From positions 1-40,053 of IMG/VR virus record IMGVR_UViG_3300026472_000012: DNA of 40,053 bases. One strand, 5' to 3'. The position numbers and the translations under genes are program-made. Under the pieces are notes generated by a model that did no database searches, was not told the DNA's origin, and saw only the letters and a list, made by a program, of their open reading frames with translations. Source of the stretch: a virus. Shown here piece by piece: positions 1 through 40,053 of this stretch (its first letter is position 1; every line of letters starts with the position of its first letter).

Positions 1-122
1 AGCTAGACCCTTAGCGACAGTGCGACCAAGCTTGATTCCTAAAGTTTCATCACCTATCTTTTTGCCTAAAATAAAGTCTGTGGCTTTTTGTTGTAGATCT
101 TTTAGCGTATTACCAAGTTCTT
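1..122. repeat. Terminal overlap copy 1 (identical to 39932..40053)
   Basis: I aligned the two ends base by base: agctagacccttagcgacag...taccaagttctt occurs at both. Confidence 0.95.
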
Positions 123-1170
123 TAATCTTACTAATTGCAGTTTCAATACCACCTGCCCACTTCTCCCAATCTATGAGAGATTCACCGCCACGTTTCCATG
201 TTTGATAGTCATCCCAAAGCAAAGCAATCGCAGCCGCTAATGCTAAGACAATACCAATAGGAGATGCCAAAAAGACTAAACGCAAGGCTTTGAAAATATT
301 GAGTAGCCCTGTAAGCATCGGTAATAATTTTGCGAACTTTCCAATCGCTGAAAATAGACCACCAAATACCACCGTCAGCATTGCGATTTTAAGTCCCGCT
401 GCTAAGAATGTTTTGATATGTGGATTGAGCTGCCCAAACCAATGAATCGCAAATTGAATCAATTGATTAAGCAATTTAAGAACAGGGATTAAAGCTTTAC
501 CCGCAGTCATTACAATGACTTCCATCAATGCCTTTAACTGCATCGTCATATCACGCCACTGATATGCAAACTCTTGACCTGACTTCGCTAACTCATCATT
601 TAACCCCATGTCTTTACGTAACTTTTGGTATTTCTCCATTTCAGAAGTAAATTTACCGTCACGCATCGCCATCAAAGTAGATTCATCAATTCCAAGTGCA
701 TTGGCATAGTTATTCGCTTTGTAATACTCCATGCCTTGCAAAGTTTTAGACAAATCTTTCATGACTTCGACACGGTCACGCATCTGACCGTTTTGATCGC
801 GAGTCGTTACACCCAAGCCCTTAAGCATTCCCTCATAGCCGGGTGATTCACGAAGTTTACGTGCAACACTTTCAAGTGATGAAATCGCACCTTCAGCACT
901 ACCACCCATCTGACTAATAGCATCGCCATACGCTCTGATATTGTTTGCAGACGCACCAATTCGTTGACTTGAGTAATACAACTTTTCAAGCTCGTTAGCA
1001 GTCTTTGCAACAGCCAATACCGCTGTACTCGCTAATGCAATCAAAGCACGACTAAGTAAATTTGCCGATTTTTCATTACTGTCTAAAGCTTCTTTTGACT
1101 TTTTAGCACCTGTATCATCTGTTTTAAATGTCAGTGCAACTAAGAAATCACGAATTACTGTACTACTCAT
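1..1170 (-). CDS. Tail tape measure protein, 5' part (continues across the circular junction into 38942..40053)
   Basis: ATG at 1170..1168 follows AAGGA. My hand translation (MSSTVIRDFLVALTFKTDD...LGRTVAKGLA) has no stop down to position 1, exactly 390 codons. It is missing from the ORF track because it runs off the edge. It lies after the sheath, tube and chaperone genes. Confidence 0.85.
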   Translation of the reverse strand, partial: MSSTVIRDFLVALTFKTDDTGAKKSKEALDSNEKSANLLSRALIALASTAVLAVAKTANELEKLYYSSQRIGASANNIRAYGDAISQMGGSAEGAISSLESVARKLRESPGYEGMLKGLGVTTRDQNGQMRDRVEVMKDLSKTLQGMEYYKANNYANALGIDESTLMAMRDGKFTSEMEKYQKLRKDMGLNDELAKSGQEFAYQWRDMTMQLKALMEVIVMTAGKALIPVLKLLNQLIQFAIHWFGQLNPHIKTFLAAGLKIAMLTVVFGGLFSAIGKFAKLLPMLTGLLNIFKALRLVFLASPIGIVLALAAAIALLWDDYQTWKRGGESLIDWEKWAGGIETAISKIKELGNTLKDLQQKATDFILGKKIGDETLGIKLGRTVAKGLA

Positions 1171-25463: not shown

Positions 25464-25970
25464 ATGAATTCTCAAGTTCAAAATAGAACGCACTGGAAGC
25501 AATTAATTAATCCTAAATATTTAGGTGTTTATTGCCTTCCAAATGGGCAGGATCTGACTATCACAATCCGTTCAGTAGGTCGTGAAATTGTTATTGGTGA
25601 TGGCGGTAAAAAAGAAGAATGTACTGTGGCACAGCTCGTAAATTCAAAACCTATGATTCTTAACCGAACCAACTGTAAAACCATTGAACGCATGTATGGT
25701 CCATATTTAGAAGATTGGGCTGGAAAATCAATCACAGTGTTTGAATCATCTGTAAAAGTTGCTGGTGAAATCGTTGCTTGCTTACGAGTCAGAAAAGAAG
25801 TACCCCACGTTCAGAAAGTATTGCATCCAATTACCCCGCAGCAGTTCGATAAAGCGCTAAAAGCAGTTGAGACAGGTCATTACTCCATTGATCAAATCGT
25901 TGCTGGATATGCTTTAACTCAAGATCAACTCAACCAATTAAATGGAGTCAAAAATAATGAAACTAATTAG
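25464..25970 (+). CDS. Hypothetical early protein (recombination-module neighbour)
   Basis: 168-aa ORF preceded by AGGAGAAAGAG, directly upstream of the nuclease gene. Confidence 0.55.
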   Translation: MNSQVQNRTHWKQLINPKYLGVYCLPNGQDLTITIRSVGREIVIGDGGKKEECTVAQLVNSKPMILNRTNCKTIERMYGPYLEDWAGKSITVFESSVKVAGEIVACLRVRKEVPHVQKVLHPITPQQFDKALKAVETGHYSIDQIVAGYALTQDQLNQLNGVKNNETN

Positions 25971-26580
25971 AGCTTCATCAATTGGAAAGATTATGGCTTA
26001 CCCTGAAAAAGATACTTTAAGCAGTGGCGCATATACATATCTTGAGTGCTTAGCGTCTCAAGTGGCTTTGGATTGGGATGAGGATTTAAGTTTTAACATG
26101 GTCGAAAAAGGACGCATCGTTGAGCAAGATTCTATCGATCTCTACAACAGTTATAACTTCACAAGCTATGTGAAAAATACTGAACGTAAAAACTCAGAAC
26201 TAATCACCGGCGAATGTGACATCGATGATGTGGAAAACAGCCTAATCATTGATATCAAATCTTCTTGGTCTAAAGCAACTCACCCCTACCAATTGAAGCT
26301 AGGCGGTAAAACAGCGTATGAATGGCAACTCTTAGCCTACATGCACCTATGGGATAGAAACCAAGCTGAACTAGCACATTGCTTAGTTGATACACCATAC
26401 GAATTGATTGGCTATGAAGATGACAATCTGCATGAAGTAAATCATATCGACAAAGCATTACGTGTGACTACGCTTCGTTTTGAACGTGATGCAATCAAAG
26501 AAAAACAAATGTTGGCCAAAGCAAAAACAGCACAATATGTTTTGGCTGAATTACTTGATAAGAAAGGAATTGCGGCATGA
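25957..26580 (+). CDS. PD-(D/E)XK nuclease (YqaJ/lambda-exonuclease-like)
   Basis: Start ATG 25957 follows GGAG. Motifs GECDID and IIDIKSS fit D...(D/E)xK. Confidence 0.6.
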   Translation: MKLIRASSIGKIMAYPEKDTLSSGAYTYLECLASQVALDWDEDLSFNMVEKGRIVEQDSIDLYNSYNFTSYVKNTERKNSELITGECDIDDVENSLIIDIKSSWSKATHPYQLKLGGKTAYEWQLLAYMHLWDRNQAELAHCLVDTPYELIGYEDDNLHEVNHIDKALRVTTLRFERDAIKEKQMLAKAKTAQYVLAELLDKKGIAA

Positions 26581-36531: not shown

Positions 36532-37161
36532 TTATGCCACCCATACATCCCTTATTTTATTTAAAAATGATTCATCTTTCTTAAGCTCTGGTTGCACAGT
36601 CCCTGCATCATGCAAAGGTGCTGTTTTTTCCGGTTCTTTCTGCTGCTCAATCATTAGATTAGTTTCTAAGGTATTTGTGATGATGACCTTTTTTAAAGTC
36701 ATCGTAACTAACAAGGCATTTTCAGATTCTAAGTCTGTAGTTACTTTTAGCGACTTGATTAGCATGTCTGTGTAAAGTCGCTTACCTGTCATGATGACTA
36801 ATCGAATTGCTTTTCTTTGCAATGCTTGTAAAGCTTCGTAAACTCCAATAAGTGACGGAGTACCAGCAATAAAACTATTCCCAAGCAAACCATTTAAACG
36901 CCCCGCACTTTCAGACCAACCTAATTTAATAGTCACTTCTGGTGGATTCATATAAGCGTGATCTGAAATTGGTGAGCCTATTTCTACTGGATGCTCAGTA
37001 ATATTGAGTTCATCACTATGTTGTTCTTCAATCGTTACATCAGCAAATAAGCCCATGATCGTGCGTTTCTTTGCAAACAAAAGCGAACCTGTTGTTTGAA
37101 TTTCACTGTTATATTGGCTTGCTTGAGTGAGTGCAGATTGGACAATTGATGGTAGTGCCAT
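36532..37161 (-). CDS. Tail/baseplate protein in the Mu gp43 (DNA-circulation-N-like) position
   Basis: Start trimmed to ATG 37161 (MALPSIVQSAL). The track N-terminal extension would run through a terminator hairpin. Contains the ITEHPVEIGSPISDHAY motif. Confidence 0.5.
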   Translation of the reverse strand: MALPSIVQSALTQASQYNSEIQTTGSLLFAKKRTIMGLFADVTIEEQHSDELNITEHPVEIGSPISDHAYMNPPEVTIKLGWSESAGRLNGLLGNSFIAGTPSLIGVYEALQALQRKAIRLVIMTGKRLYTDMLIKSLKVTTDLESENALLVTMTLKKVIITNTLETNLMIEQQKEPEKTAPLHDAGTVQPELKKDESFLNKIRDVWVA

Positions 37162-37177: not shown

Positions 37178-37199
37178 TAAAAAACCCACCGAAGTGGGC
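37178..37199 (-). terminator. Intrinsic terminator after the DUF4282-like membrane gene
   Basis: Minus strand: CCCAC-TTCG-GTGGG followed by TTTTTTATT. Confidence 0.7.
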
Positions 37200-37249
37200 T
37201 TGTGGGCTGTATGAGTGATATGAAAATCAAGGCTACTAGGGTGCTTTTC

Positions 37250-37555
37250 TCATAATGGACTGTTGTTATTTCTAGCCTTATCTAAAAGTTCAGCAGTACG
37301 TCGTGTATTTTGTTGAATTTTAAAAATTACTACCCAAAATTCAGCCCACATACGCACAATCAATGTTCCTACAAAAATTACTAAAACAGCAACAAGACAT
37401 CTACCTAAATCATTTATTTCATGTAGAAACGGAATATTTACAGCATTAATCGCGATTGATAGTCCCAAAAAAACAACAATAGCTAGCATTATCCAATAAA
37501 TAAAAGTAATGATTTTTGTTGATAACACAGCATCTAAAAAGAATAAATTTTTCAT
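37250..37555 (-). CDS. Small multi-pass membrane protein (DUF4282-like, tentative)
   Basis: 101 aa with two long hydrophobic segments and RMWAEFWVVIFKI. Confidence 0.55.
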   Translation of the reverse strand: MKNLFFLDAVLSTKIITFIYWIMLAIVVFLGLSIAINAVNIPFLHEINDLGRCLVAVLVIFVGTLIVRMWAEFWVVIFKIQQNTRRTAELLDKARNNNSPL

Positions 37556-37621
37556 ACGTCTTCCACGAGTATTGATTTATTATGTATACAAAATATACGC
37601 TTCAATATTATGGAAATCTAA

Positions 37622-37975
37622 ATGAAAAAACTACTTCTAATTGCTTGCTGTACGTTTAGTGTTGGGGCGTGGGCTGATTGCGCTAATTTACAAGGTGAAA
37701 AATATTCAAAATGCCTTAATACCGAATTAGATAACAGTCAAAAACTTCTCAAAAACACTCTTAATAGTATTTTTGATTCACTCCCTGAACGATCTAAAAA
37801 TGATTTTAAAGACTCTCAACAAACTTGGTTAAAATATCGAGAGTCAGAATGTCGATATCAATTAGGCTTAAATTCTACTGGTTCTGACTTTGCTACAGAT
37901 GCTACAATTTATGACACTCAATGTAAACTTGAGTTGAATAAACAAAGAATAAAAACACTAAGTGATAACAATTAA
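37622..37975 (+). CDS. Secreted DUF1311/LprI-like (lysozyme-inhibitor family) protein
   Basis: Signal peptide MKKLLLIACCTFSVGAWA. The mature part has C...C, QQTWLKYRESEC and a C...R spacing typical of DUF1311. Confidence 0.6.
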   Translation: MKKLLLIACCTFSVGAWADCANLQGEKYSKCLNTELDNSQKLLKNTLNSIFDSLPERSKNDFKDSQQTWLKYRESECRYQLGLNSTGSDFATDATIYDTQCKLELNKQRIKTLSDNN

Positions 37976-38022
37976 CCATATATTCCTTTTGAATTTCTAG
38001 TCATTTGCAGATTAACCACGTC
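37972..38022 (-). repeat. Diverged remnant copy 3 of the tape-measure 3' end
   Basis: The minus strand reads ...AATCTGCAAATGACTAGAAATTCAAAAGGAATATATGGTTAA (NLQMTRNSKGIYG*). The real end reads NLQMTRNSKGLWG*. Confidence 0.8.
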
Positions 38023-38403
38023 TTATTTTAATATTGTATAAGTAATATCTTCATTCGGTTGATTTCCCCATCCTGTCCAAATTTCTGTAAGTACAACTTT
38101 ATTTCCTTTCAAAGATTTAACTTTTGAAATAAAAACTCTAGGTGGACTAGTCTCATTTGGTTGATTACTTTCAACTAACATAAAAGTATCATCACTTATC
38201 CATTTAACTCTTGCAGGAAGATCAAGTGAACATTTTGATAGTGGTTGTTCACCCATTAATCCTGAACTCTTAGACAAAGAAATACCAGCGCATGTAGCTC
38301 CATCTATACGCAAAGTTTTTCCTGTAAGTAAGTTTTTATAATCAACTGCATTAGCCACACAACTTAAAAACATTCCCAAGCTAATTAAAATTAGTTTTTT
38401 CAT
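38023..38403 (-). CDS. Secreted protein, unknown function
   Basis: Start ATG 38403 gives MKKLILISLGMFLSCVANA, a signal peptide. The track N-terminal extension is the out-of-frame remnant of the tape-measure 3' end. Confidence 0.6.
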   Translation of the reverse strand: MKKLILISLGMFLSCVANAVDYKNLLTGKTLRIDGATCAGISLSKSSGLMGEQPLSKCSLDLPARVKWISDDTFMLVESNQPNETSPPRVFISKVKSLKGNKVVLTEIWTGWGNQPNEDITYTILK

Positions 38404-38465
38404 GTAAAAATTCCCACTGAATTTCGAGTCATTTGTAAATTCACAGCATCTTGCTCTTTTCGTAC
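38400..38465 (-). repeat. Diverged remnant copy 2 of the tape-measure 3' end
   Basis: The minus strand reads GTACGAAAAGAGCAAGATGCTGTGAATTTACAAATGACTCGAAATTCA... (VRKEQDAVNLQMTRNS), matching the real tape-measure tail at 38942..39007. Confidence 0.85.
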
Positions 38466-38504
38466 AAAAACATATCATAGAGTCATTCTAAAAAGGATTC
38501 CAAA

Positions 38505-38945
38505 ATGAAAAAACTTCTTCTAATTGCTTGCTGTACTTTAAGTATTGGGGCTTGGGCAGAGACAGTAAATAATCAATTTAAAATTACTCCCCCTTTTGGT
38601 AAAACATCATTGGGTAGATGTCATATGGACACATGTTCATGGGGTAAAGTTCTTAATAAAAAAATAATTACTTCTTCTAAAACATCTCTGAATGTTGAAG
38701 CCACCATCTTAGGAGGAGAATCACCAATGTCTAAATCAAGTAAAGTGAAATGGAATAAAACGCCACATAAAGTAATCGCCGTTTGTTCTAAAGAGAATCC
38801 AAGTGTCATCATTGATGATCAGGTAACACAACTAGATGTTAAAGACTTTCCTGCTGTTGAGGAAAGTGATGTAAATGTCTATTTTCTAATCTGTCATGAT
38901 TATATAAATGGGGCATATGATGGGGCAAAAAAATTCAAATATTAA
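38505..38945 (+). CDS. Secreted protein, unknown function
   Basis: Signal peptide MKKLLLIACCTLSIGAWA is nearly identical, at the DNA level too, to that of 37622..37975. The mature part is unrelated. Its stop overlaps the tape-measure stop at TTAA. Confidence 0.65.
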   Translation: MKKLLLIACCTLSIGAWAETVNNQFKITPPFGKTSLGRCHMDTCSWGKVLNKKIITSSKTSLNVEATILGGESPMSKSSKVKWNKTPHKVIAVCSKENPSVIIDDQVTQLDVKDFPAVEESDVNVYFLICHDYINGAYDGAKKFKY

Positions 38946-40053
38946 CCCCATAATCCCTTAGAATTTCTAGTCATTTGTAGGTTTACTGCATCTTGCTCTT
39001 TTCGTACTGCTTTTGCGGTCATCATAGCATCACCACCAGTGACATGAATATCAGTTTTTTGATTGATATTCACGTTTCTGTTTGACGACTGTGTATTAGA
39101 AATATTTGGAATAACTGGATTTATATTGTTCGGCACTTCGGCATTTTGGGCAAATTTTGCAATAGAACCTCTATTAATTTCAACATTAGAAATTGCTTTT
39201 TTGCTTAAATCATTTTCAAGAGCATTCAGATTATTTCGTCTACGTTGATCATGTGGTTGCCAATCAAATTTAATTCGAGTGCCATTAGGTCCTTTAATTG
39301 TTTCTTGGCCATAGGCCCATCCGACGTATATTTTACCCAACTCAGCAGCGAATGTTTCGGGATCAAAATTTGGATTGTTCCAAAATTTAGGTAATTTTGA
39401 AGCATATTTATCATCTTTCATTTCTGATACAGCAAACTCAGCCATAGCATTTAGTGCTGCTTGCCCTTGAACAATTTTACCTTTTTCATCAAGTAATCCT
39501 TTTTGCTGTAAATAATTCTTTAATTTTGTAGCTCTTTCTCTATTCCATGATAAAAAACCCATATTGGAGATAGAATTACCTTTCCCATCTTTGGCTGCAT
39601 CTGTATGGAATCCAAACATAGTCTTTGCATTGTATTCATTTTCACGTCCTACTTCTGCTGTAATTGCTAATGCTTGATTTTTTGAAAGTCCTGCATTTAA
39701 GAACGCTTCATAGACCATCATTCGATTATCAGACTTGTTACCTAGTTTTAAACTGCTGTTTGCCTGAACCTTTTCTTGCACATCCCCCGCTACAGCATTT
39801 GCCATTCCAACAATTCTATTCACTCCAGCTAAAGCCGTTTGTTGAAGAGTTTGGGTTGATTGTTGCTTAGTATTACCTGTACTGGCTTTTTCAGCATCAA
39901 GTGCTGCTTGAGCTTCTTTATTACCAATAAAAGCTAGACCCTTAGCGACAGTGCGACCAAGCTTGATTCCTAAAGTTTCATCACCTATCTTTTTGCCTAA
40001 AATAAAGTCTGTGGCTTTTTGTTGTAGATCTTTTAGCGTATTACCAAGTTCTT
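38942..40053 (-). CDS. Tail tape measure protein, 3' part (with a lysozyme-like C-terminal domain, tentative)
   Basis: Same frame as 1..1170 across the junction (...LGRTVAKGLA|FIGNKEAQAALDAEK...). Track ORF 38942..39823 is only its internal tail. The joined gene is 2160 nt (719 aa). AITAEVGRENEYN...GFLSWNRERA resembles phage-tail-lysozyme-type domains. Confidence 0.8.
   Translation of the reverse strand, partial: ELGNTLKDLQQKATDFILGKKIGDETLGIKLGRTVAKGLAFIGNKEAQAALDAEKASTGNTKQQSTQTLQQTALAGVNRIVGMANAVAGDVQEKVQANSSLKLGNKSDNRMMVYEAFLNAGLSKNQALAITAEVGRENEYNAKTMFGFHTDAAKDGKGNSISNMGFLSWNRERATKLKNYLQQKGLLDEKGKIVQGQAALNAMAEFAVSEMKDDKYASKLPKFWNNPNFDPETFAAELGKIYVGWAYGQETIKGPNGTRIKFDWQPHDQRRRNNLNALENDLSKKAISNVEINRGSIAKFAQNAEVPNNINPVIPNISNTQSSNRNVNINQKTDIHVTGGDAMMTAKAVRKEQDAVNLQMTRNSKGLWG
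39932..40053. repeat. Terminal overlap copy 2 (identical to 1..122)
   Basis: Same 122-nt string as the window start. This indicates a circular molecule or circular assembly. Confidence 0.95.

What the first reader, a model, noticed from the sequence alone, without database searches (positions are those of the whole stretch)
37250..39010. Moron stack built on three copies of the tape-measure 3' end
Four small accessory genes in alternating orientation lie between the tape-measure stop (38942) and the next tail gene (start 37161). The last ~50-65 nt of the tape-measure gene occur three times on the minus strand. The real end is at 38942..39007 (VRKEQDAVNLQMTRNSKGLWG*). A remnant at 38400..38465 (VRKEQDAVNLQMTRNSVGIFT*) runs straight into the ATG of the 38403 gene. 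A third, more diverged copy is at 37972..38022 (NLQMTRNSKGIYG*). Both + strand genes (37622, 38505) end on the same TTAA that overlaps a tape-measure-type stop. They also share a near-identical signal-peptide-coding 5' end (MKKLLLIACCT(F/L)S(V/I)GAWA) with unrelated mature parts. This pattern implies repeated cassette capture or exchange by recombination at the conserved tape-measure tail and at the signal-peptide sequence. A candidate promoter for the 38505 gene (TTGCTC-16-TATCAT, about 38451..38478) is built from remnant copy 2.
Basis: seen in the sequence. Interest (0 to 1): 0.7.

Follow-up and report, generated by a model that had tools for sequence, protein, structure and literature searches.

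The report
Accessory-gene stack behind phage tape measure
A temperate Acinetobacter phage carries four small envelope-protein genes between two tail genes, and leftover copies of the tape-measure gene's last 45-66 bases show that they were stacked up by recombination with related phages; it is a very clean example of a known way in which phages trade accessory genes.

Summary
The last 45-66 nt of the tape-measure (TMP) gene occur three times on the minus strand. A 23-nt core gives 3 hits where 0 are expected by chance. The two + strand genes share a 54-nt signal-peptide-coding 5' end (89% identical) joined to unrelated mature parts. Both end on a TTAA that overlaps a TMP-type stop.

One carries TMP/LprI-DUF4282-Dit, and its real TMP end is 45/45 nt identical to remnant 3. 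Others carry TMP-geneC-Dit, and their real TMP end is 66/66 nt identical to remnant 2. The same signal peptide heads four unrelated mature domains. The TMP-Dit gap ranges from 404 to 3291 nt across relatives.

The best model is serial 3'-end displacement. Incoming TMP ends with their downstream genes were recombined in and pushed older ends downstream. The conserved tail and the signal-peptide sequence then served as short homology anchors for further swaps.

A convergent LprI-family gene overlapping the TMP stop is ancestral and widespread. The proposed promoter is weak and unverified. Cassette function is inferred only: periplasmic or membrane proteins, possibly antagonists of peptidoglycan hydrolases. 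This is ordinary phage mosaicism with an unusually legible footprint, so interest is moderate.

The parts
38942..40053 (-). 3' 1112 nt of the tape-measure gene (719 aa in all). The gene continues at 123-1170 (-) because the window is a circular assembly. It carries a Phage_lysozyme2 domain.
   Evidence: The first 122 nt equal the last 122 nt.
38942..39007 (-). Real TMP tail (tail 1), VRKEQDAVNLQMTRNSKGLWG*. Its stop shares the TTAA at 38942-38945 with gene D.
38505..38945 (+). Gene D, 146 aa: a Sec signal peptide (MKKLLLIACCTLSIGAWA) followed by a Cys-containing mature part with no Pfam or PHROG family. It is convergent with the TMP.
   Evidence: Homologues lie next to unrelated Phage_lysozyme2 proteins.
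38466..38504 (.). 39-nt spacer between gene D's start and remnant 2.
   Evidence: The junction is homologous to L015.
38400..38465 (-). Remnant 2: a displaced 66-nt TMP tail (VRKEQDAVNLQMTRNSVGIFT*). Its TGA overlaps gene C's ATG, and its left breakpoint is sharp.
   Evidence: 66/66 nt identical to the real TMP end of L013, L014 and L015.
38023..38403 (-). Gene C, 126 aa: a signal peptide followed by a predicted 8-stranded beta-barrel that is weakly lipocalin-like.
   Evidence: AF2 pLDDT 82. Foldseek E 0.03, TM about 0.5.
37972..38022 (-). Remnant 3: a displaced partial TMP tail (..VVNLQMTRNSKGIYG*). Its stop shares the TTAA at 37972-37975 with the LprI gene.
   Evidence: The last 45 nt are 45/45 identical to the real TMP end of L009.
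37622..37975 (+). LprI/DUF1311-family gene, 117 aa, with signal peptide MKKLLLIACCTFSVGAWA.
   Evidence: Pfam PF07007, E 8e-12. The same arrangement recurs in relatives.
37620..37677 (+). Signal-peptide-coding repeat, copy 1. Copy 2 is at 38503-38560.
   Evidence: D2, 90%. (89-100% among four gene types).
38503..38560 (+). Signal-peptide-coding repeat, copy 2.
37556..37621 (.). Divergent intergenic region between the DUF4282 and LprI genes. It contains the palindrome TGTATACA (37583-37590) and is 100% conserved next to different mature domains.
37250..37555 (-). DUF4282 membrane-protein gene, 101 aa.
   Evidence: Pfam PF14110, E 1e-10. Contexts.
37182..37201 (-). Intrinsic-terminator hairpin just upstream of the Dit ribosome-binding site. 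It is the right-hand boundary of the variable region.
   Evidence: Relatives diverge at 37198-37202.
36532..37161 (-). Dit-like baseplate gene, the conserved right flank.
   Evidence: Pfam PF21821, E 7e-32..

Best explanation
The window is a complete, circularly assembled genome of a temperate Acinetobacter myophage with an E217-like tail.

The gap between the tape-measure gene and the Dit-like baseplate gene is a hot spot for accessory genes (morons). The ancestral state is a tape-measure gene whose stop codon overlaps, by 4 nt, the stop of a convergent periplasmic LprI-family gene.

In this lineage, new tape-measure 3' ends came in from related phages together with whatever gene lay downstream of them. 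One crossover was homologous, within the conserved tape-measure body or tail. The other was illegitimate or in a very short homology. Each event kept a working tape-measure end and pushed the previous end, with its gene, downstream.

The result is the stack: tail 1/gene D, remnant 2-gene C, remnant 3/LprI.

Once present, the 45-66-nt tails and the 54-nt signal-peptide-coding segment act as portable homology. Cassettes, or only the mature-domain part of a secreted protein, can then be exchanged by ordinary (probably phage-assisted) homologous recombination.

Shown:
- the repeats;
- their identity to live tape-measure ends in relatives;
- the modular variation;
- the breakpoints.

Inferred:
- the order and mechanism of the events;
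- that the four products (three with signal peptides, one membrane protein) are made in lysogens and act in the envelope, most plausibly to blunt peptidoglycan-degrading attack from incoming phage tails or T6SS effectors.
For: - Repeats are far above chance.
- Remnant 2 is 66/66 nt identical to the real TMP end of L013, L014 and L015, where gene C follows with the same ATGA overlap. Remnant 3 is 45/45 nt identical to the real TMP end of L009, where the LprI gene follows with the same TTAA overlap.
- Phages with an identical or 96%-identical Dit carry different contents: TMP/LprI-DUF4282 (L009), TMP-geneC (L013), TMP/122aa-DUF4282 (L089), TMP-geneC-122aa-DUF4282-SocA_Panacea-134aa (L014), and pRha or PIN cargo next to Dit (L003, L006, L007, L010). 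The gap length ranges from 404 to 3291 nt.
- The junction after gene C (TAAGACGTGGTTAATCTGCAAATGACT) is identical in five contexts. The sequence after CAAATGACT differs (KGIYG, KGLWG, KGVFG, or decayed), so crossovers lie inside the tail core.
- The signal-peptide DNA is 89-100% identical on four mature domains with no detectable similarity. Identity drops to 24-44% immediately after the cleavage codon.
- The TMP is mosaic. Its first ~1 kb is 95-100% identical among the window, L013, L014 and L089. The central hydrolase module is unrelated. The last ~180 nt are again 97-98% identical to L013 and L014.
- Each cassette has 29-33% GC (31.4% for the block), against 38.0 +/- 2.8% for the other genes.
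- A convergent LprI-family gene overlaps the TMP stop in relatives down to 46% Dit identity.
- The same evolutionary logic, homology-facilitated illegitimate recombination that leaves displaced 3' ends and orphan genes, is described for T6SS effector-immunity arrays and for Rhs (PMC5361080).
Against: - No relative was found with gene D as the only cassette, so the donor of tail 1 and gene D is inferred and not observed.
- No relative has an empty TMP-Dit junction, so insertion and deletion cannot be polarised. L013 looks like a deletion of LprI-DUF4282 at an AAAAG microhomology.
- No single-strand annealing protein was recognised in the genome. Only an exonuclease (phrog_5715) was found.
- Expression in lysogens is untested, and promoter-like sites are not enriched.
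- The protective function rests on family names and gene neighbourhood only. Homologues of gene C and of the 122-aa gene also occur in chromosomal or plasmid contexts without any phage tail gene.
Confidence: 0.8

Rival explanations
1. In-situ tandem duplication. The TMP 3' end was duplicated twice inside this genome, the copies then diverged, and unrelated genes were inserted between them.
For: The three copies are direct repeats on one strand within 1.1 kb.
Against: Each remnant is identical to the live TMP end of a different extant phage (66/66 nt with L013, 45/45 nt with L009). Each is only 76-78% identical to this phage's own tail. That pattern fits import, not local divergence.
Confidence: 0.04
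2. Site-specific cassette system (integron-like or att-like). The tail sequence is a recombination site recognised by a recombinase that inserts cassettes.
For: Repeated ~50-nt elements lie at cassette boundaries. The array-like growth pushes older units back, as in integrons (analogy noted in PMC5361080).
Against: No recombinase gene lies in or next to the block. The only integrase is the prophage integrase about 9 kb away. Left breakpoints differ (66 nt versus 45-51 nt) and crossovers fall at several positions within the tail. Cassettes lie in both orientations. The other cassette boundary is a signal-peptide sequence or a terminator, not a second copy of the site. The tails have no significant inverted-repeat or RNA structure.
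Confidence: 0.04
3. The repeated tail is kept because it is a functional cis element for the neighbouring genes, such as a terminator, an RNA motif, an operator or a translational-coupling signal. On this view it is not a scar.
For: Remnant 2 supplies the ATGA junction and the upstream sequence (a possible weak Shine-Dalgarno, GGGA) of gene C. Remnants that overlap a convergent gene's stop are intact.
Against: Neither strand has a fold better than shuffles (z from -1.2 to +1.1). There is no Rfam match in the tails and no terminator-like site there. Where no gene overlaps it, the remnant after gene C decays (L013 and L018, 6 of 23 core mismatches and the frame lost).
Confidence: 0.08
4. Chance similarity in AT-rich DNA, or an assembly artefact.
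For: The region is AT-rich (31% GC). The window is a metagenome-style circular contig.
Against: 100 shuffles gave no match, against 3 observed. The identical block is present in assemblies from NCBI, ENA, JGI and several Logan runs.
Confidence: 0.01

Closest known systems
Morons of lambdoid phages (HK97/HK022; reviewed in 'The moron comes of age', PMC3594210), including the HK97 gp15 moron in the tail-gene region
   Same: Extra small genes sit between conserved late genes. They are variably present among relatives and have lower GC than their surroundings. They often encode envelope proteins that act in the lysogen, for example in superinfection exclusion.
   Different: Here several morons are stacked. 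Their boundaries are marked by displaced copies of the upstream structural gene's 3' end and by a shared signal-peptide sequence. Independent promoters and terminators were not demonstrated.
C-terminal displacement and orphan arrays of Rhs, CDI and T6SS effector-immunity loci (Kirchberger 2017, PMC5361080; Jackson 2009, as cited there)
   Same: A gene with a conserved part receives a new 3' end plus the downstream gene. The old 3' end and its partner gene are pushed downstream and accumulate as an array. The proposed mechanism is homology-facilitated illegitimate recombination, with homologous exchange afterwards.
   Different: The displaced pieces are only 45-66 nt of a conserved tail and do not include the variable domain. 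The gene is a virion structural gene. A toxin-immunity relation between the TMP hydrolase module and the downstream genes is not shown, and for two of the cassette families it is contradicted.
Mosaic exchange at short conserved boundary sequences, and relaxed recombination by phage recombinases (Clark 2001 on HK620; De Paepe 2014; both from my own knowledge, not checked here)
   Same: Short conserved segments at module borders serve as crossover points between diverged phages. The anchors of about 45-60 nt are of the size such recombinases use.
   Different: The anchors here are coding sequence (a protein C-terminus and a signal peptide) and not intergenic linkers. No annealing protein was recognised in this genome.
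T4 Spackle (PMC7677548, PMC7650644) and T5 Llp (PMC9586334)
   Same: Small phage-encoded periplasmic or lipoprotein factors block the entry apparatus of superinfecting phage. Spackle inhibits the tail lysozyme gp5. llp lies next to the gene for the tail protein whose receptor it blocks. Here, periplasmic proteins are encoded next to a tape measure with a lysozyme domain.
   Different: No sequence or fold relation was found or tested. The function here is only a hypothesis.
LprI/DUF1311 family (PF07007): M. tuberculosis LprI, Salmonella ScwA (PMC7933661), and putative T6SS immunity proteins against lysozyme-like effectors (PMC12135965)
   Same: The 117-aa product matches PF07007 above the curated cut-off, has a signal peptide and has the family's cysteines.
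   Different: Lysozyme inhibition by the LprI domain itself is not established. ScwA does not inhibit lysozyme (PMC7933661). Nothing was tested here.

Membership tests
Phage moron / accessory-gene hot spot | Genes present between two genes that are closer together or differently filled in related phages (presence/absence polymorphism) | tested here: met
   Phages with an identical or 96%-identical Dit carry 1, 2, 4 or 5 different genes in the gap. Gap length ranges from 404 to 3291 nt. A completely empty site was not found.
Phage moron / accessory-gene hot spot | Base composition different from the surrounding genome | tested here: met
   The block has 31.4% GC and each gene 29-33%. The other genes have 38.0 +/- 2.8%.
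Phage moron / accessory-gene hot spot | Autonomous transcription unit (own promoter and terminator), expressed from the prophage | tested here: inconclusive
Promoter-like sites are not above shuffles. Only one terminator was found (37182-37201), at the right edge. The two + strand genes must have their own promoters because they oppose the late operon, but none was verified. RNA-seq is needed.
3'-end (C-terminal) displacement array, as in Rhs/CDI/T6SS effector-immunity loci | Orphan 3' fragments of the upstream gene lie downstream of the intact gene, each followed by its own associated gene | tested here: met
   Remnant 2 is followed by gene C and remnant 3 by the LprI gene. Each pair is found as a live TMP end with the same gene in relatives.
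3'-end (C-terminal) displacement array, as in Rhs/CDI/T6SS effector-immunity loci | The displaced fragment contains the variable (toxin) domain, and the partner gene is its cognate immunity gene | tested here: not met
   The remnants hold only the conserved last 45-66 nt, not the hydrolase module. Partner families also occur away from any TMP. A window-like lysozyme module is paired with a different gene in L108. Only gene D shows independent association with Phage_lysozyme2 proteins.
Integron-like cassette array | Adjacent integrase, attC-type imperfect inverted repeats at fixed cassette ends, and cassettes in one orientation | tested here: not met
   No nearby recombinase. No significant hairpin in the tails. 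Orientations alternate. Junction positions vary.
LprI/DUF1311 (PF07007) | Significant match to the family profile | tested here: met
   E 8.1e-12, 45.9 bits against a cut-off of 22. Relatives' convergent genes also match.
LprI/DUF1311 (PF07007) | Inhibition of a lysozyme or other peptidoglycan hydrolase | not testable with these tools
   The literature is divided (PMC7933661, PMC12135965). A biochemical assay is needed.
Tape-measure protein with a muralytic domain | Long protein between the tail-chaperone genes and the baseplate genes, with a PhageMin_Tail-type region and a peptidoglycan-hydrolase domain | tested here: met
   719 aa, lying after the Phage_TAC_15 and DUF6889 genes. Phage_lysozyme2 at residues 459-569: E 5.5e-7 and 30.3 bits (cut-off 28.2) on the C-terminal fragment; 26.8 bits on the full length. 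PhageMin_Tail is only a weak hit. Relatives carry Glucosaminidase, SLT, Hydrolase_2 or VgrG3-like_C at the same position.

The most novel reading that the evidence does not exclude
The stack could be a phage-borne poly-immunity array. On this reading, each small periplasmic protein encoded next to a tape-measure end antagonises a class of peptidoglycan hydrolase: the muralytic module of tape measures of related phages (Spackle-like superinfection exclusion) or T6SS cell-wall effectors. Serial displacement then lets a lysogen accumulate protection against several types, in parallel with T6SS orphan-immunity arrays.

In favour:
- A convergent LprI/DUF1311-family gene is welded to the stop codon of muralytic tape measures across a wide span of relatives.
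- Gene D homologues (70-75% identical) lie beside otherwise unrelated large proteins that share only the Phage_lysozyme2 domain with this tape measure.
- DUF1311 proteins are proposed T6SS immunity proteins (PMC12135965).

Against:
- Strict pairing fails for gene C, for the 122-aa family and in L108.
Probability: 0.15. Interest if true: 0.75.

Novelty: new variant of a known kind. Interest (0 to 1): 0.45.

Why it matters
The locus gives an unusually readable record of how temperate phages build up accessory genes.

- The scars (displaced tape-measure ends) can be matched base for base to live genes in sister phages, so donors, breakpoints and the homology anchors (45-66 nt) can be named.
- A signal-peptide-coding segment can serve as a recombination handle for swapping the mature part of a secreted protein.
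- The tape measure's cell-wall-hydrolase module is exchanged between the same conserved flanks.
- The TMP-Dit gap of Acinetobacter E217-like prophages emerges as a place to look for envelope-acting and defence-type cargo (LprI-family, DUF4282, SocA/Panacea, PIN). These genes are annotated only as hypothetical in isolated phages such as Ab105-1phi.
- If the periplasmic proteins prove to inhibit tail or T6SS muramidases, the locus would matter for phage-therapy host range in Acinetobacter.

Tried and rejected
- Megablast of the region against GenBank phages found nothing. A protein search found only distant isolated relatives at 63% Dit identity.
- The one genome-contig scan gave only 3 relatives. 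It served mainly to name the host genus.
- A tail pattern in IMG/VR found 2 contigs that were already held. The signal-peptide pattern found 1 metagenome contig and no viral contig.
- The AlphaFold model of gene D failed (pLDDT 36), so no fold search was made for it.
- The gene C model was good, but it matched only generic lipocalin-like barrels (E 0.03), which gives no function.
- The idea that each convergent gene is the cognate inhibitor of its tape measure's hydrolase module was tested in two ways. The co-occurrence table is confounded by linkage. Independent contexts supported it for gene D only. They contradicted it for gene C (a chromosomal copy, and a copy next to a VgrG3-like_C tape measure) and for the 122-aa family (Rep3 plasmids and a chromosomal island). 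L108 also contradicted it.
- An RNA-structure or Rfam role for the tails was rejected.
- L003, L006, L007 and L010 (different cargo next to an identical Dit) were checked for misassembly involving other parts of this genome. Their extra DNA has no match elsewhere in the window.
- The 116-aa versus 126-aa gene C calls are a gene-calling difference and not a mutation.
- A search of the early region for a single-strand annealing protein found only an exonuclease.


Full report
**What is in the window**

The window is a circular assembly. Its first 122 nt equal its last 122 nt. It encodes a complete temperate phage:
- an S24-type repressor;
- a tyrosine integrase;
- O-like and DnaC-like replication proteins;
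- RusA;
- terminase and portal;
- a GH24 endolysin;
- an E217-like contractile-tail module.

The host genus is Acinetobacter. The identical gene D protein is annotated in A. guillouiae, and Dit relatives lie in Acinetobacter genomes.

The tape-measure gene (TMP, 719 aa) spans the assembly junction, at 38942-40053 and then 123-1170 on the minus strand. It carries a Phage_lysozyme2 domain.

Four genes lie between its stop and the Dit-like gene (36532-37161):
- gene D (38505-38945, +);
- gene C (38023-38403, -);
- an LprI/DUF1311-family gene (37622-37975, +);
- a DUF4282 membrane-protein gene (37250-37555, -).

- The repeat finder returns the three tail copies and the two signal-peptide copies.
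- A 23-nt tail core gives 3 hits with at most 3 mismatches, against 0 in 100 shuffles.
- Remnant 2 is 50/66 nt identical to the real tail, and remnant 3 is 40/51.
- The ATGA overlap between remnant 2 and gene C can be read directly from the sequence. So can the two TTAA stop-stop overlaps.
- The signal-peptide-coding 54 nt are 89% identical. The next 54 nt are 44% identical, and the mature parts give no BLASTP hit.
- The block recurs with 0-10 SNPs per 3.5 kb in NCBI, ENA, JGI and Logan assemblies.

All of the following have an identical or 96%-identical Dit:
- L009 has TMP/LprI-DUF4282-Dit.
- L013 (GCA_009007315.1) has TMP-geneC-Dit.
- L089 has TMP/122-aa gene-DUF4282-Dit.
- L014 has TMP-geneC-122aa-DUF4282-SocA_Panacea-134aa-Dit.
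- L003, L006, L007 and L010 have PIN or pRha cargo next to Dit.

L009's live TMP end is 45/45 nt identical to remnant 3, and homology to the window starts at about 38027. The live TMP end of L013, L014 and L015 is 66/66 nt identical to remnant 2 and runs into gene C with the same ATGA. The remnants are therefore the ends of two other TMP alleles that still exist as working genes.

Across 39 distinct loci the gap ranges from 404 to 3291 nt. The right boundary of the variation is the terminator hairpin at 37182-37201.

**Breakpoints**

- Gene C is followed in all five of its contexts by the same junction, TAAGACGTGGTTAATCTGCAAATGACT. After CAAATGACT the sequence is KGIYG-, KGLWG- or KGVFG-type, or it is decayed. 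Later crossovers therefore fell inside the tail core.
- Remnant 2 has a sharp left edge at GTACG. The same junction (signal-peptide gene, ~40-nt spacer, tail) is present in decayed form in L015: 78% over 144 nt, reaching 35 nt into the remnant. That junction is therefore older than this phage. In the window lineage the remnant has probably been renewed by exchange with a live L013-type tail.
- The window's own TMP is identical to L013's up to ...GAGCAAGATGC and then differs at 15 of the last 45 nt. This is another crossover inside the tail.
- The TMP body is mosaic as well. The first ~1 kb is shared at 95-100%, the central hydrolase module is unrelated, and the last ~180 nt are shared again with L013 and L014. 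Relatives carry Glucosaminidase, SLT, Hydrolase_2 or VgrG3-like_C modules at that position.

**Signal peptide as an anchor**

MKKLLLIACCTFSVGAWA, encoded by DNA that is 89-100% identical, heads four mature domains:
- the LprI-type domain;
- gene D;
- a 122-aa type;
- a 120-aa type.

Homology ends at the cleavage codon. L009 and L089 differ only in the segment between the tail and the signal peptide, which is a clean swap. Gene D homologues elsewhere have other signal peptides, which fits the locus-type signal peptide having been grafted on.

**What is ancestral**

A convergent LprI-family gene overlapping the TMP stop by 4 nt is found in relatives down to 46% Dit identity. These include isolated phages such as Ab105-1phi, where it is annotated only as hypothetical. 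The LprI unit with remnant 3 is therefore the old core of the locus. Gene C and then gene D were added in front of it.

**Mechanism proposed**

The model is serial 3'-end displacement by homology-facilitated illegitimate recombination, followed by homologous exchange at the tails and at the signal peptide. The same logic was proposed for T6SS effector-immunity arrays and for Rhs (PMC5361080).

Rivals were examined and found weak:
- In-situ duplication. Each remnant is identical to another phage's live tail and not to this phage's own.
- An integron-like system. There is no nearby recombinase, junction positions vary, orientations are mixed and the tails have no hairpin.
- A cis-acting RNA or terminator. 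Folding z-scores run from -1.2 to +1.1, there is no Rfam hit in the tails, and remnants decay where nothing overlaps them.
- Chance or artefact.

**Function**

Three products have Sec signal peptides and one is a membrane protein. Each cassette has 29-33% GC, against 38.0 +/- 2.8% for the other genes of the genome, which is typical of morons.

- The LprI/DUF1311 family has been linked to peptidoglycan-hydrolase control and to T6SS immunity, but lysozyme inhibition by the domain is unproven (PMC7933661, PMC12135965).
- Gene D is rare (5 clusters). Its homologues lie beside unrelated large proteins that share only the Phage_lysozyme2 domain with this TMP (35-36% identity, E about 1e-29).
- This suggests an antagonist of tail lysozyme in the manner of T4 Spackle (PMC7677548).
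- The general lysin-inhibitor pairing idea failed for gene C, for the 122-aa family and in L108.
- Structure prediction did not help.

Function therefore remains an inference with low confidence.

**The promoter claim**

The hexamers are at the stated positions, but the -35 matches only 3/6. The scan did not list the site, and promoter-like sites are not enriched. A minus-strand site in the same spacer (38503..38474) could serve gene C. Neither site is verified.

**Verdict**

The kind of event (morons, mosaic exchange at short conserved sequences, displaced 3' ends) is known. Its occurrence on a tape-measure gene, together with a signal-peptide anchor and donors that can be named, is a new variant and a good teaching case. 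It is not a new mechanism.

Noticed in passing
window 1-122 and 39932-40053: The first and last 122 nt are identical. The window is therefore a circularly assembled complete phage genome of about 39.9 kb, and the tape-measure gene is split across its ends (start at 1170, minus strand).
   Followed up: yes
window 38942-40053 and 123-1170; L013, L014, L089, L072, L075, L098: The tape measure's central peptidoglycan-hydrolase module is itself a swappable cassette between a conserved N-terminal ~1 kb and a conserved last ~180 nt. Relatives carry Phage_lysozyme2, Glucosaminidase, SLT, Hydrolase_2 or VgrG3-like_C there.
   Followed up: partly
L093:2948-5489, L094, L096:2329-5393: Gene D homologues (70-75% identical) lie just downstream of large proteins of other elements that share only the Phage_lysozyme2 domain with this tape measure. 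One of these elements is in the A. colistiniresistens chromosome.
   Followed up: partly
window 37182-37201 (-), with a sub-threshold Rfam isrB hit at 37179-37248: A strong intrinsic terminator lies inside the late operon, directly upstream of the Dit ribosome-binding site. It is conserved in relatives and marks the right edge of the variable region. The Rfam hit (26.6 bits against a gathering score of 35) probably reflects only the hairpin.
   Followed up: partly
L014:6573-7651, L003:95-2110, L006/L007/L010, L031:5743-6939, L033:5732-6931: A second cargo slot next to Dit holds cytoplasmic, defence- or toxin-antitoxin-like genes in relatives: SocA_Panacea with a 134-aa gene, a PIN-domain gene, pRha, and pairs of 260-265 aa with 133-137 aa.
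   Followed up: no
L015:5392-8532 and L108:2859-9304: Two contigs join a tape-measure 3' end and a signal-peptide gene directly to non-tail DNA (an ars operon; a primase-like gene). These are truncated or rearranged elements, or chimeric assemblies.
   Followed up: no
L100/L101 and L103-L107: The 122-aa family also occurs in a chromosomal island of small secreted proteins next to another LprI-family gene (A. calcoaceticus). It also occurs just after repB on small Rep3 plasmids of A. baumannii.
   Followed up: no
window 37583-37590: The perfect palindrome TGTATACA lies in the 66-nt divergent region between the DUF4282 and LprI genes. That region is 100% conserved next to different mature domains, so it is a possible operator.
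   Followed up: no
L013:5382-5505 compared with window 37230-37260 and 37972-38022: L013 looks like a deletion of the LprI-DUF4282 pair between the partial tail and the sequence after DUF4282, at an AAAAG microhomology. Cassettes are therefore lost as well as gained.
   Followed up: partly
window 25464-26580: An exonuclease gene (phrog_5715) lies in the early-left operon beside a 168-aa protein of unknown function. This could be a Red-like recombination pair, but no annealing protein was recognised.
   Followed up: partly
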